Shown piece after piece: positions 45,101-48,100 of a stretch of DNA of 64,000 bases. Position numbers: made by a program. Source of the stretch: Escherichia coli (GTDB lineage Bacteria > Pseudomonadota > Gammaproteobacteria > Enterobacterales > Enterobacteriaceae); NCBI RefSeq assembly GCF_050920415.1, contig NZ_CP169309.1; one strand, given 5' to 3'. How positions within the stretch are numbered: position 1 is the stretch's first letter; each line of letters opens with the position of its first letter.

Positions 45101-48100
45101 CTTAAGGCCAATCATTGCGCAGTACATCTGACCGTGGCGGAATTTGCGTGCGGCGAACGATGTGACACACTGGACGGTGGTGTTAGTCAGAATGTATCGC
45201 CAGAACGCCAGCCCAATTTCCTTGCTGAAGCCGCGAATCTCTGGCAGGTACATGGCGTGGCAATCGAATGTCAGCGGCTGAATCTCCTGATAGTAAACAA
45301 TGCCGCCGAACTGCCCGTGCACGTTCACCTCAAAGTAACGGCAATCAGGTTTGTAGTCGTATCCATCACCGTTGTTGCTCCCGGCAATAATGTCAGGGTG
45401 ATTTCCGACTGCTTCGATCAAGTCGATGTTTCGCGTTGGTTTGAACTGAATCATCACTGCTCCGCAATGATTTTGATGGTTGTGGCAGTAAACGCCGCAC
45501 CATTTGACTGAATGGTTAACGTACTGCCATTTGTGGCAAGAAAGCCGTCTTTATCCACGCTGAAGAACGTAGCTAACAGGATGTTATCGGTTGTTGTCGC
45601 CGAGTTGCGACTGCTTACCAGTGTGTCAGGAACAGAGCCGGAAAAGCTTAGTTGCATTGACCTGTTGGCGGTTCCGCTGGGCCACGTCCCGACGATCGAC
45701 AGCTTGAAGAACAAGGTTTTGTTCTCGTTGAACACAACCATCTTGTTGTTAACGGTGTCGAAGAATGGTGTCAACGAGCCGGATGACGGCGTGAGCGTTT
45801 TCAGTAGGCTAACAAGGTTGGTCGGCGCTGTCGGAATGGTTACTGATACGCCAGAGTAAACAACCTCTGACTTCTTGCGCGTGGTTGCATAATCCAGAGC
45901 ATCAATGCGCGATTCATGATCTGAAACCTGCGATTCCAGCGACTGAACTCTGGTATCAAGCGACGCAATATCGCTTTCATTCTGAGCGATTCGCGTTTCA
46001 TGTTCCTGAAGAGTTGATTCTGCCTGGCTGATTCGCTCCTCATGATTAACAAGCGTTGCTTCCGCAGCAGAAATTCGCTGCTCATGGTCAGCGAGAATCA
46101 CATCCTGCTCATCGTTCCTGACCTGTGCATCATAAGCGCCCTGTCCGGCCTCGTTGGCCTTGTTAGCCACGTTACCAACATCAGTACCTTGCGCGATAAC
46201 GTACAGCAGATACGACTGCGAGAAGATATTGCGTGGAAGGACTGATGTATCGAGCCGCGTAGCCTGGATGATTACCGGCACATTGAGATTCGAATCCGCC
46301 ATTACTCAATCCTTATCTGAGCGCCAGACAGAGTTACAGGTGACTTCGTGATAACGCGCAATTTGAAGCCGACATTTTTCCTGATGCGCCCGACACGCTT
46401 CCACAAAACGCGTTTGTCGTAAACGAACGGTTCATTCTGCTCAATCATCTGCTCACGACCGTAATTTATGCCGTCAGTGGTTGCAGAGAGGAACAGGCGG
46501 TCGGCGTACTGCGCAACGCCAGTTGAAGATTCAACTTCAAGGTCGAAAACTCTGGCGTTATCTGCTTTGAACAAAGGAGTAAACAGCAGGTGTTCCTGTT
46601 GCTTGTCGTACTGACTGCTGATATCGAACTGCAATTTCCCGGTCACGGATTCCAGCTTATCGCCGCACGTTATCTGATTGCCTTCGTAAATGAAGTCGAT
46701 AGCGCGGTACACATCGTCATACAGGCCTGTTTTCAGCACACACCATTGCGGACCATTGGCGCTTGAAGATGCGTCGTACACCAGAACATGGCGCGGAAGA
46801 TGGATAATCAGCAGCTCATGCGCATCAAATCGCAGAGACTCCATCACACCATCAGCCAGTTCATCAGCAGTGTAGGAGCGGAGAATTTTCTCAATGCTCG
46901 CGCTGGCGATTGGTGACACCTGACCGGAGCCAATGATATACACAGACGGCGCACCTGTTGCCGGATTGCTGATAAACGCATAAGAATCAGCGAATGGCGT
47001 TTTGCAGTAAGTCCCGGCAATGCCTTTCTGCACCATCAGCGATGGCTGGGCGACATACAAAGCAGAACCAACGGTGGTTGCACCAGTCAGGGAAAAATAC
47101 TCAATCGTCGAAGAACCAAAGCAGACGATGAAGTCTCGCCATGTCCCGATACCGATGATGCCGTCCGGCTGCGATTCTGCGCGATATTGTGCACTGTATC
47201 GGTCAGGGTGCGATTCGTCTTCAGGGTCAGTGATAAACCATGAATCAGTTCCGTCTTTTGACCACGCATAACGCCCACGTAAGCGCGTAATGTCGCGAAC
47301 TGAACCTAACTCGTACTGTGTGAATCCGCTGTCTGTAGGCCAGTTTGAGACGGTTTTAACCGTGCCATCATAGCGATACTCGACCAGTTGACCATTAACG
47401 CCTATCGCCTGTGATGTCCGACCATGCGCCATTGATACACGACCACTTCCGTCAACGTCACCGACTTCACTTTCTCCTTTGTACAGCTTGCCACCGCAAA
47501 CGCGATAAACAGCATTCTGCGCCATGTTGTACTCGACACCGCGCGATACACCATTCACATCAGAGCGTTTGGCAATGCCCGGGAATGAGCGAAGATATCC
47601 GCTGCTGTTGAGGATTTCTTTGGGTGTAGCCAACATATTCACTGGCAGATAGTCGATATAGTCGGCGTTTCGGAAATCTTTGCCGACACCTTTCATGAGC
47701 GGAAGTTGCTGAATCGGCATTATTCGCTCCCGTTATCGCAAGGTTCCTTTCGGTGGAAGTAATTCCAACCGTTCCACTTCGCCAACTGGTTACCGCTACC
47801 AACAGGCATACGGTTTGGATAACCGGACTTACATTTAGCGGCTTTTGCTCTGTCCATTGCAGACAGTTTGACGAGTCGCTCTTTCCCGTATCTGGCAGTG
47901 GTTATAAGTTTTGCAGGCGCTTCCAGCGCATAATCCGGTGCAATGCGGCAGGCAAGGTTGAAAATGACAGCATTGATAGCGTTATTTGATAAACCGTGCT
48001 CATCGCCCGGATCTGGAGCGACATCTGCATCAGCGAAAATGTAGCCAACGTTGATACCAGGTGACACATCACCGCCAAGCCATTCAGCCATCATCATTTC

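What the first reader, a model, noticed from the sequence alone, without database searches (positions are those of the whole stretch)
45454..46302. Tail needle with conserved gp26 N-terminus but an extended C-terminal domain
The first ~60 residues match P22 gp26, but the protein is 282 aa and its C-terminal ~100 residues are unrelated to the P22 tip, consistent with an Sf6-type knob domain that may contact the cell envelope.
Basis: partly seen in the sequence, partly recalled or inferred. Interest (0 to 1): 0.3.

Follow-up and report, generated by a model that had tools for sequence, protein, structure and literature searches.

The report
Ordinary Sf6-type phage tail needle gene
This is a textbook Sf6-type tail-needle gene (the plug and tip of a P22-like phage tail) with a well-known knob at its end, 97% identical to a protein whose knob has been solved by crystallography, and it sits in an E. 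coli prophage that appears to be broken elsewhere.

Summary

- **N-terminus:** residues 1-60 are 81.7% identical to P22 gp26.
- **Whole protein:** it has the same length as Shigella phage Sf6 gp9 and is 96.8% identical to it (9 amino-acid differences).
- **Knob:** residues 130-282 match the crystal structures of the Sf6 and HS1 needle knobs (3RWN, 4K6B; E about 1e-88). Pfam PF16532, "Sf6-type phage tail needle knob", scores 380 bits.
- **Binding residues:** all six L-glutamate-contacting residues and the phosphate triad are conserved.
- **Fold:** an AlphaFold model built on a 9-sequence alignment superposes on 3RWN with TM 0.91.
- **Already catalogued:** the exact protein is in NCBI as "tail needle knob protein". 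The 90% cluster has 3620 members, and about 440 of 5426 complete E. coli genomes carry the locus.

Two corrections apply: the knob is about 143 residues, not about 100, and published swap experiments argue against the knob setting host range.

One added finding is that the host prophage, inserted at the lambda attB site, has single-base frameshifts in the large terminase (two), the portal and ejection protein gp7. The needle gene is probably an intact part of a recently inactivated prophage.

The parts
45454..46302 (-). Tail needle gene (Sf6 gene 9 / P22 gene 26 homologue), 282 codons plus TGA stop
   Evidence: ORF list. 96.8% aa and 95.4% nt identity to Sf6 gene 9, same length, 30 synonymous vs 9 non-synonymous codon differences. 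The exact protein is in NCBI as 'tail needle knob protein'.
46123..46302 (-). Codons 1-60: N-terminal hub-binding (plug) domain shared with P22 gp26
   Evidence: 81.7% identity to P22 gp26 residues 1-60. Matches PDB 8EAP_B (gp26 residues 1-62) at E 1.8e-27. DNA homology to the P22-type-needle phage IME10 runs through the first ~67 codons, to window 46100, and then stops.
45886..46122 (-). Codons 61-139: alpha-helical coiled-coil shaft with recurring H-E-x-R-I heptad-type motifs (residues 73, 87, 101, 129)
   Evidence: The AF2 model has one continuous helix over 29-140 with pLDDT >90. Aligns to the P22 gp26 helical core at 33% identity. Generic coiled-coil Pfam hits fall below their cut-offs.
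45457..45885 (-). Codons 140-282: Sf6-type knob, a TNF-like jellyroll
   Evidence: PDB 3RWN and 4K6B, E about 1e-88. PF16532, 379.9 bits. Foldseek target TM 0.90-0.92. Glu146, Lys200, Ser248, Asp250, Leu255, Lys277 and Ser231-Arg232-Asn233 are all conserved. 4 of 143 residues differ from Sf6: S176T, T178A, S219T, A270S.
46302..47720 (-). Upstream neighbour: tail hub / P22 gp10 homologue (Sf6 gp8), the structure the needle plugs
   Evidence: PF11134 Phage_stabilise, 989 bits. Same order as in Sf6.
44999..45454 (-). Downstream neighbour: P22 gp14 / DUF2824 homologue (Sf6 gp10)
   Evidence: PF11039, 180 bits. Synteny with Sf6.
44305..44996 (-). Ejection protein gp7 homologue, split by a 1-nt deletion near 44864 into 53-aa and 186-aa ORFs
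   Evidence: ORFs. PF25688 matches only profile positions 45-230. The deletion is seen against both IME10 and Sf6.
52890..54387 (-). Large terminase, broken into three ORFs by 1-nt deletions near 53969 and 53469
   Evidence: ORFs of 226, 116 and 195 aa. The indels are seen against IME10 and against the intact 499-aa gene of E. coli EN-1077.
50723..52889 (-). Portal gene, broken into 586-aa and 163-aa ORFs by a 1-nt insertion near 51199
   Evidence: The indel is seen against IME10 and against the intact 721-aa portal of EN-1077.
37123..37137 (.). Lambda attB core TTAGTATAAAAAAGC at the chromosome/prophage junction (prophage begins at 37138)
   Evidence: The window is identical to E. coli MFDS1022581 up to 37137 and diverges afterwards. 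That strain has ybhB-ybhC uninterrupted. That this 15-mer is the lambda core is my own knowledge.

Best explanation
The gene encodes the trimeric tail needle of a P22-like (Lederbergvirus) temperate phage, of the Sf6 subtype.

From the published work on P22 gp26 and Sf6 gp9, the mechanism is as follows. The N-terminal ~60 residues insert into the channel of the gp10-type tail hub and plug it, keeping packaged DNA in the head. Residues ~60-140 form a long trimeric coiled-coil shaft that projects beyond the tailspikes. Residues 140-282 fold into a trimeric TNF-like jellyroll knob that holds one L-glutamate at each subunit interface and a phosphate at the tip. After the tailspikes digest O-antigen, the needle tip is the first part to reach the outer membrane. 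The needle is then released, which opens the channel for the ejection proteins and DNA. The tip domain tunes the rate of DNA delivery rather than host range.

Shown here: the identity, the domain layout, the conserved ligand-binding residues, the fold and the synteny. Inferred from homology: trimerisation, plugging and release.

In this window the gene is intact, but the prophage around it carries frameshifts in the large terminase (two), the portal and gp7. The prophage alone probably cannot make infectious particles. The needle gene is therefore most likely an undamaged component of a recently inactivated prophage.
For: Identity to Sf6 gp9 is 96.8% over 282/282 aa, with 30 synonymous against 9 conservative non-synonymous codon changes, the pattern expected under purifying selection. 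The knob matches crystal structures 3RWN and 4K6B at E about 1e-88, and the N-terminal part matches P22 gp26 structures at E about 1e-44. PF16532 scores 380 bits and PHROG 1030 'tail needle knob' gives E 1e-133. All glutamate- and phosphate-contacting residues named in PMC3741392 are present. The AF2 model with an alignment has mean pLDDT 83.8, and Foldseek puts 3RWN/4K6B on top at TM 0.91, followed by P22 gp26, PRD1 P5 and TNF/C1q folds. Gene order gp4-gp10-needle-gp14-gp7-gp20-gp16-tailspike is the same as in Sf6. The exact sequence is already named 'tail needle knob protein' in NCBI. For the defective prophage: four 1-nt indels, each checked against two independent references, while the adjoining 37,137 nt of chromosome has 0 indels and 2 substitutions against a sister strain.
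Against: Nothing contradicts the identification. On functional state, the four frameshifts all lie at 1-2-base runs and could be assembly errors, because no identical second copy of this prophage was available. The prophage extends beyond the window end, so its overall integrity was not assessed. Trimer formation and plugging were not tested and cannot be tested with these tools.
Confidence: 0.95

Rival explanations
1. The prophage is fully functional and the four frameshifts are sequencing or assembly errors. The needle would then be an actively used virion protein of an inducible phage.
For: All four indels sit in 1-2-base runs (GG>G, CC>C, T>TT, CC>T region). The remaining late genes (scaffold, coat, gp4, gp10, needle, gp14, gp20, gp16, tailspike) are full length.
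Against: The adjoining 37,137 nt of chromosome shows 0 indels against E. coli MFDS1022581. An error rate giving 4 indels in about 10 kb would predict about 15 there. The indels are not in long homopolymers, where long-read errors concentrate.
Confidence: 0.15
2. The knob is a specific receptor-binding domain that recognises an outer-membrane protein such as OmpA or OmpC, and so determines which cells can be infected.
For: The knob has the TNF-like fold of the adenovirus and PRD1 receptor-binding knobs (PMC3741392). Sf6 needs OmpA/OmpC as secondary receptors (PMC9728967). Among P22-like phages, Sf6-type knobs occur only in phages of Escherichia/Shigella.
Against: A P22 chimera carrying the HS1/Sf6 knob infects Salmonella efficiently. 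Glutamate-site mutants are viable, and the tip domain is dispensable in the laboratory, with only K+ release kinetics changing (PMC3741392). Nothing in this window bears on the question.
Confidence: 0.2
3. The needle gene has been co-opted by the host, or is kept for the benefit of other phages, and is maintained by selection independently of the dying prophage.
For: The gene is intact while four other virion or packaging gene segments are broken. The literature notes more than 100 E. coli genomes with small P22-like remnants that retain an Sf6-type needle gene.
Against: An 849-nt gene escaping 4 random hits spread over about 17 kb of late genes is the expected outcome by chance. No separate promoter, fusion or altered context is seen, and the gene keeps overlapping start and stop codons with its phage neighbours.
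Confidence: 0.03

Closest known systems
Shigella phage Sf6 gp9 tail needle (NP_958185; knob structure PDB 3RWN)
   Same: Same length (282 aa), 96.8% identity and no indels. Same three-domain layout and same neighbours (gp8 hub upstream, gp10/DUF2824 downstream). All L-glutamate and phosphate ligand residues are identical.
   Different: Nine conservative substitutions (window>Sf6: S92R, E100D, A113S, S131T, D137E, S176T, T178A, S219T, A270S). It resides in an E. coli prophage at the lambda att site rather than in Sf6, and its other late genes are closer to phage IME10.
E. coli HS prophage HS1 tail needle knob (PDB 4K6B)
   Same: The knob matches at E 1.9e-88 and shares Ala270 with the window protein. 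It has the same TNF-like jellyroll with bound glutamate.
   Different: The HS1 needle has a longer shaft (317 codons, PMC3741392). Three Ser/Thr/Ala differences lie within the knob (alignment).
Salmonella phage P22 gp26 tail needle (PDB 2POH, 3C9I, 4LIN)
   Same: The N-terminal hub-binding domain is 82% identical over residues 1-73. It has a homologous trimeric coiled-coil core, the same position in the operon and the same plug function.
   Different: The P22 tip (residues ~141-233, an inverted coiled coil) is unrelated in sequence to the knob. P22-type needles are 233 aa.
PRD1 P5 / adenovirus fibre knob / TNF-C1q superfamily
   Same: Trimeric jellyroll fold. Foldseek hits to PRD1 P5 (E 2e-5), TNF-family ligands and C1q heads.
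   Different: Only 5-18% sequence identity, a fold-level resemblance only. Receptor binding is documented for those proteins but not for the Sf6-type knob.

Membership tests
Sf6-type tail needle (Pfam PF16532 Phage_tail_NK; PHROG 1030) | C-terminal domain matches the Sf6-type knob profile above the curated cut-off | tested here: met
   PF16532: 379.9 bits vs cut-off 27, residues 108-282 covering profile positions 1-175 of 175. PHROG 1030: E 1.3e-133.
Sf6-type tail needle (Pfam PF16532 Phage_tail_NK; PHROG 1030) | Knob adopts the TNF-like jellyroll fold of 3RWN/4K6B | tested here: met
   About 97% sequence identity to the crystallised constructs. The AF2 model superposes with target TM 0.90-0.92, rmsd 2.2 A over 153 columns.
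Sf6-type tail needle (Pfam PF16532 Phage_tail_NK; PHROG 1030) | L-glutamate-contacting residues (Sf6 numbering E146, K200, S248, D250, L255, K277) and phosphate triad S231-R232-N233 | tested here: met
   All nine residues are present at the same positions (residue list from PMC3741392). Actual ligand binding was not tested.
Sf6-type tail needle (Pfam PF16532 Phage_tail_NK; PHROG 1030) | gp26-type N-terminal hub-binding domain followed by a helical shaft | tested here: met
   81.7% identity to P22 gp26 residues 1-60. PDB gp26 hits at E about 1e-44. Predicted helix 29-140.
Sf6-type tail needle (Pfam PF16532 Phage_tail_NK; PHROG 1030) | Position in the P22-like late operon between the gp10 (hub) and gp14 homologues | tested here: met
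   PF11134 gene upstream and PF11039 gene downstream, with overlapping stop/start codons. Same order as Sf6.
Sf6-type tail needle (Pfam PF16532 Phage_tail_NK; PHROG 1030) | Homotrimer that plugs the tail channel in the virion and is released at infection | not testable with these tools
   Needs biochemistry or cryo-EM. Inferred from Sf6 and P22 (PMC9728967, PMC3741392).
P22-type tail needle tip (gp26 residues ~141-233) | C-terminal domain homologous to the P22/HK620/epsilon34 tip | tested here: not met
   P22 gp26 structures align only to query residues 1-137/155. Global alignment with the P22-type needle of IME10 shows no meaningful similarity after about residue 75. IME10 DNA homology stops at codon ~67 and resumes only at the next gene.

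The most novel reading that the evidence does not exclude
The most novel reading not excluded is that the needle gene stays intact in a decaying prophage because it is still used. It might be a recombination or complementation reservoir for superinfecting P22-like phages. Alternatively, its three knob substitutions relative to both Sf6 and HS1 (S176, T178, S219) might alter an as yet undefined envelope interaction.
Probability: 0.04. Interest if true: 0.3.

Novelty: already known. Interest (0 to 1): 0.04.

Why it matters
It matters little for discovery. This protein family has two crystal structures, a cryo-EM model in the Sf6 virion, a dedicated Pfam family and genetic dissection, and this exact sequence is already catalogued under the correct name. 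The result confirms that the first-stage reader identified a mosaic needle correctly from sequence alone. It also gives a clean annotation of the locus and shows that the surrounding prophage at the lambda att site is probably defective. That last point is relevant to anyone who wants to use this prophage or its needle as a functional example.

Tried and rejected
1. Translating the given coordinates on the + strand gives a frame full of stops. The gene is on the minus strand.
2. The single-sequence AlphaFold run gave pLDDT below 50 across the knob. I rejected this as evidence of disorder because the run had no alignment. A rerun with 9 homologues gave mean pLDDT 83.8 and the expected fold.
3. 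I considered that the window might not be E. coli, because the best complete-genome match to the needle locus was only 97.6%. I rejected this: the chromosomal flank is essentially identical to E. coli MFDS1022581, which simply lacks the prophage.
4. I considered that the split terminase and portal ORFs reflected differences in the IME10 reference. I rejected this after a second reference (E. coli EN-1077, with intact 499-aa and 721-aa genes) showed the same three indels.
5. I considered the 1-nt difference at the gp4/gp10 junction (~47720) as a fifth frameshift. I rejected it because it lies between the stop and start codons and only turns TAAATG into TAATG.

Full report
**Observation**

The ORF list shows an ATG-initiated ORF of 282 codons at exactly window 45454..46302, on the minus strand. 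The same coordinates translated on the + strand are full of stops. On the gene strand the start codon is preceded by AAGGA and overlaps the stop of the upstream gene (TAATG). The TGA stop overlaps the start of the downstream gene (TGATG). This tight coupling is typical of a phage late operon.

**Identity**

- A search of PDB sequences matches residues 130-282 to the Sf6 gene 9 knob (3RWN, E 6.7e-89) and the HS1 knob (4K6B, E 1.9e-88).
- The same search matches residues 1-137/155 to several P22 gp26 structures (2POH, 3C9I, 4LIN, 4ZXQ; E about 1e-44). Residues 3-64 match the gp26 N-terminal fragment in 8EAP (E 1.8e-27).
- Pfam gives PF16532, 'Sf6-type phage tail needle knob', at 379.9 bits against a cut-off of 27. 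All other Pfam hits are sub-threshold coiled-coil families.
- PHROGs gives phrog_1030 'tail needle knob' (E 1.3e-133), followed by phrog_1219 'tail needle protein' for residues 1-154.
- tblastn against phage genomes finds Sf6 gp9 at 96.8% identity over all 282 residues. Kapi1, Louie, N7 and phiKp_30 follow at 96-98%. More distant full-length homologues occur in Salmonella, Aeromonas and Shewanella phages. P22-type needles align only over residues 1-138/147.

**Residue-level comparison**

The protein has the same length as Sf6 gp9 and no indels. There are nine conservative differences (window>Sf6: S92R, E100D, A113S, S131T, D137E, S176T, T178A, S219T, A270S) and 39 nucleotide differences. Thirty of the differing codons are synonymous and nine are not, which is the signature of purifying selection since divergence.

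Identity to P22 gp26 varies along the protein:

| Residues | Identity to P22 gp26 |
|---|---|
| 1-60 | 81.7% |
| 1-73 | 82.2% |
| 74-137 (coiled coil) | 32.8% |

A global alignment with the P22-type needle of phage IME10 shows no meaningful similarity in the C-terminal half.

The literature defines the Sf6-type knob as Sf6 residues 140-282 and reports at most 4.9% divergence among such knobs in P22-like phages (PMC3741392). The window knob differs from Sf6 at 4 of 143 positions (2.8%), which is inside that range. The residues reported to contact the three bound L-glutamates (E146, K200, S248, D250, L255, K277) and the phosphate triad (S231-R232-N233) are all present.

A single-sequence AlphaFold run gave a poor model with the knob below pLDDT 50. 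This is the expected failure without an alignment and is not evidence of disorder. I assembled nine homologues from annotated phage genomes, at 49-97% identity, and reran the prediction.

- Mean pLDDT is 83.8.
- There is one long helix over residues 29-140 with pLDDT above 90.
- A beta-rich C-terminal domain follows, with most blocks at pLDDT 85-95 and two blocks at 70-76.

Foldseek against the PDB puts 3RWN and 4K6B chains on top (E about 1e-25, target TM 0.90-0.92, rmsd 2.2 A). P22 gp26 chains come next for the N-terminal part, then PRD1 P5, BclA, TNF-family ligands and C1q heads. This is the TNF-like jellyroll relationship already described for the Sf6 knob.

**Context**

The neighbours on the minus strand are as follows:

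| Gene | Evidence |
|---|---|
| Coat protein | PF11651 |
| Small protein | PHROG_1175 |
| gp4 adaptor | PF11650 |
| gp10 hub | PF11134, 989 bits |
| Needle | this finding |
| gp14 | DUF2824 |
| gp7 | PF25688 |
| gp20 | PF16928 |
| gp16-type DNA transfer protein | PHROG 770 |
| Tailspike with a P22-type head-binding domain | PF09008 |
| Acyltransferase, co-oriented with the tailspike | PF01757 |

This is the Sf6/P22 order.

At the DNA level the late region is most like phage IME10, at about 96%. That homology stops inside the needle gene at window 46100 (codon ~67) and resumes at 45456, the first base after the needle's stop codon. Homology to Sf6 is continuous from 47725 to 43606 at 94.9%. The needle's shaft and knob are thus an Sf6-type cassette in an otherwise IME10-like late operon. 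This is the well-documented mosaicism of P22-like phages.

**Host and insertion site**

Window 1-37137 differs from E. coli MFDS1022581 (NZ_CP169399.1) by two substitutions and no indels. That strain has ybhB directly followed by ybhC. In the window, the sequence diverges immediately after TTAGTATAAAAAAGC (37123-37137). From my own knowledge, this is the reverse complement of the lambda attB core. The prophage therefore occupies the classic bio-gal lambda attachment site and runs beyond the window end. Lysis, Q, Ant, helicase and O-like replication genes are seen up to 64000.

**Integrity of the prophage**

- The large terminase is split into ORFs of 226, 116 and 195 aa, and the portal into 586 and 163 aa.
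- Alignment with IME10 shows 1-nt deletions near 53969 (GG>G) and 53469 (CC>C), and a 1-nt insertion near 51199 (T>TT).
- The same three indels appear against an E. coli EN-1077 prophage that is 98.2% identical and has intact 499-aa and 721-aa genes.
- The gp7 ejection-protein gene has a 1-nt deletion near 44864 relative to both IME10 and Sf6. It is split into 53-aa and 186-aa ORFs, and the Pfam gp7 profile is matched only from position 45.

The adjoining 37 kb of chromosome has no indel against the sister strain. I therefore read these as real inactivating mutations rather than assembly noise, with about 15% left for the alternative. If they are real, the prophage cannot package DNA or build a portal vertex on its own. 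The intact needle gene is then a not-yet-damaged part of a recently inactivated prophage.

**Mechanism**

What follows is inferred by homology and was not tested here. The protein trimerises. Its N-terminal ~60 residues plug the gp10-type hub channel. In the Sf6 cryo-EM structure this trimer-in-hexamer mismatch is resolved by quasi-sixfold helical hairpins of the needle N-termini (PMC9728967). The coiled coil projects past the tailspikes, and the knob forms the distal tip.

In P22/Salmonella chimeras the Sf6/HS1 knob does not change host specificity. Glutamate-site mutants are viable, and the tip domain is dispensable in the laboratory. Changes at the tip slow K+ release, meaning they alter the kinetics of DNA delivery (PMC3741392). 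A specific role in Shigella or E. coli infection, for instance through OmpA/OmpC, remains open in the literature. This window cannot address it.

**Novelty and verdict**

The exact 282-aa sequence is already in NCBI/UniRef as 'tail needle knob protein [Escherichia]' and has been seen on 20 contigs. Its 90% cluster has 3620 members. Of 5426 complete E. coli genomes, 443 carry at least 80% of the needle locus.

The feature is a known, structurally solved and common protein. Interest is very low. The only additions are the corrected strand, the corrected domain boundaries, the mosaic junction, and the evidence that the surrounding prophage is defective.

Noticed in passing
window 50723-54387 and 44305-44996 (minus strand): Four single-base frameshifts in otherwise well-conserved phage genes: large terminase (~53969, ~53469), portal (~51199) and ejection protein gp7 (~44864). 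The flanking chromosome has no indels against a sister strain, so the prophage looks recently inactivated.
   Followed up: yes
window 37123-37137 and onward: The P22-like prophage is inserted exactly at the lambda attB core (TTAGTATAAAAAAGC) between ybhB and ybhC. The near-identical strain MFDS1022581 (2 SNPs in 37 kb) has the empty site. The integrase end lies beyond the window, so the integrase type was not seen.
   Followed up: partly
window 48268-48313: A perfect hexanucleotide tandem repeat, (TCTGGC) x 7.7. On the gene strand it encodes an (EP)n run in a small PHROG_1175 protein of unknown function between the coat and gp4 genes, and a (QS)n run in the alternative frame that extends the gp4 ORF upstream. 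The window has one repeat unit fewer than phage IME10, so the copy number varies.
   Followed up: partly
window 37395-40486 (minus strand): A tailspike (P22-type head-binding domain, 655 aa) is followed, with a 4-nt overlap and in the same orientation, by a 375-aa Acyl_transf_3 O-acetylase-like gene. The pair is 99% identical to Escherichia phage vB_EcoP-611R6. In Sf6 the oac gene is on the opposite strand to the tailspike.
   Followed up: partly
window 45456-46100 vs IME10 (L002 13871-14368): A mosaic junction lies inside the needle gene. Homology to IME10 at about 96% ends at codon ~67 and resumes at 45456, the first base after the needle's stop codon. Sf6 homology is continuous across gp10-needle-gp14-gp7-gp20.
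   Followed up: yes
L010 655-1158 (Edwardsiella phage Edno5): A stand-alone 167-aa 'tail needle knob' protein consists almost only of the knob domain (48% identical) and has no gp26-like N-terminus. It lies near lysis genes rather than in a needle position. This fits the published 'outside' knob homologues of unknown function.
   Followed up: no
window 3498-5510 and 24326-26623 (minus strand): The chromosomal part of the window carries genes that the sister strain annotates as a type III effector (EspX2-like in other strains) and a 765-aa pentapeptide-repeat protein. They are unrelated to the finding.
   Followed up: no
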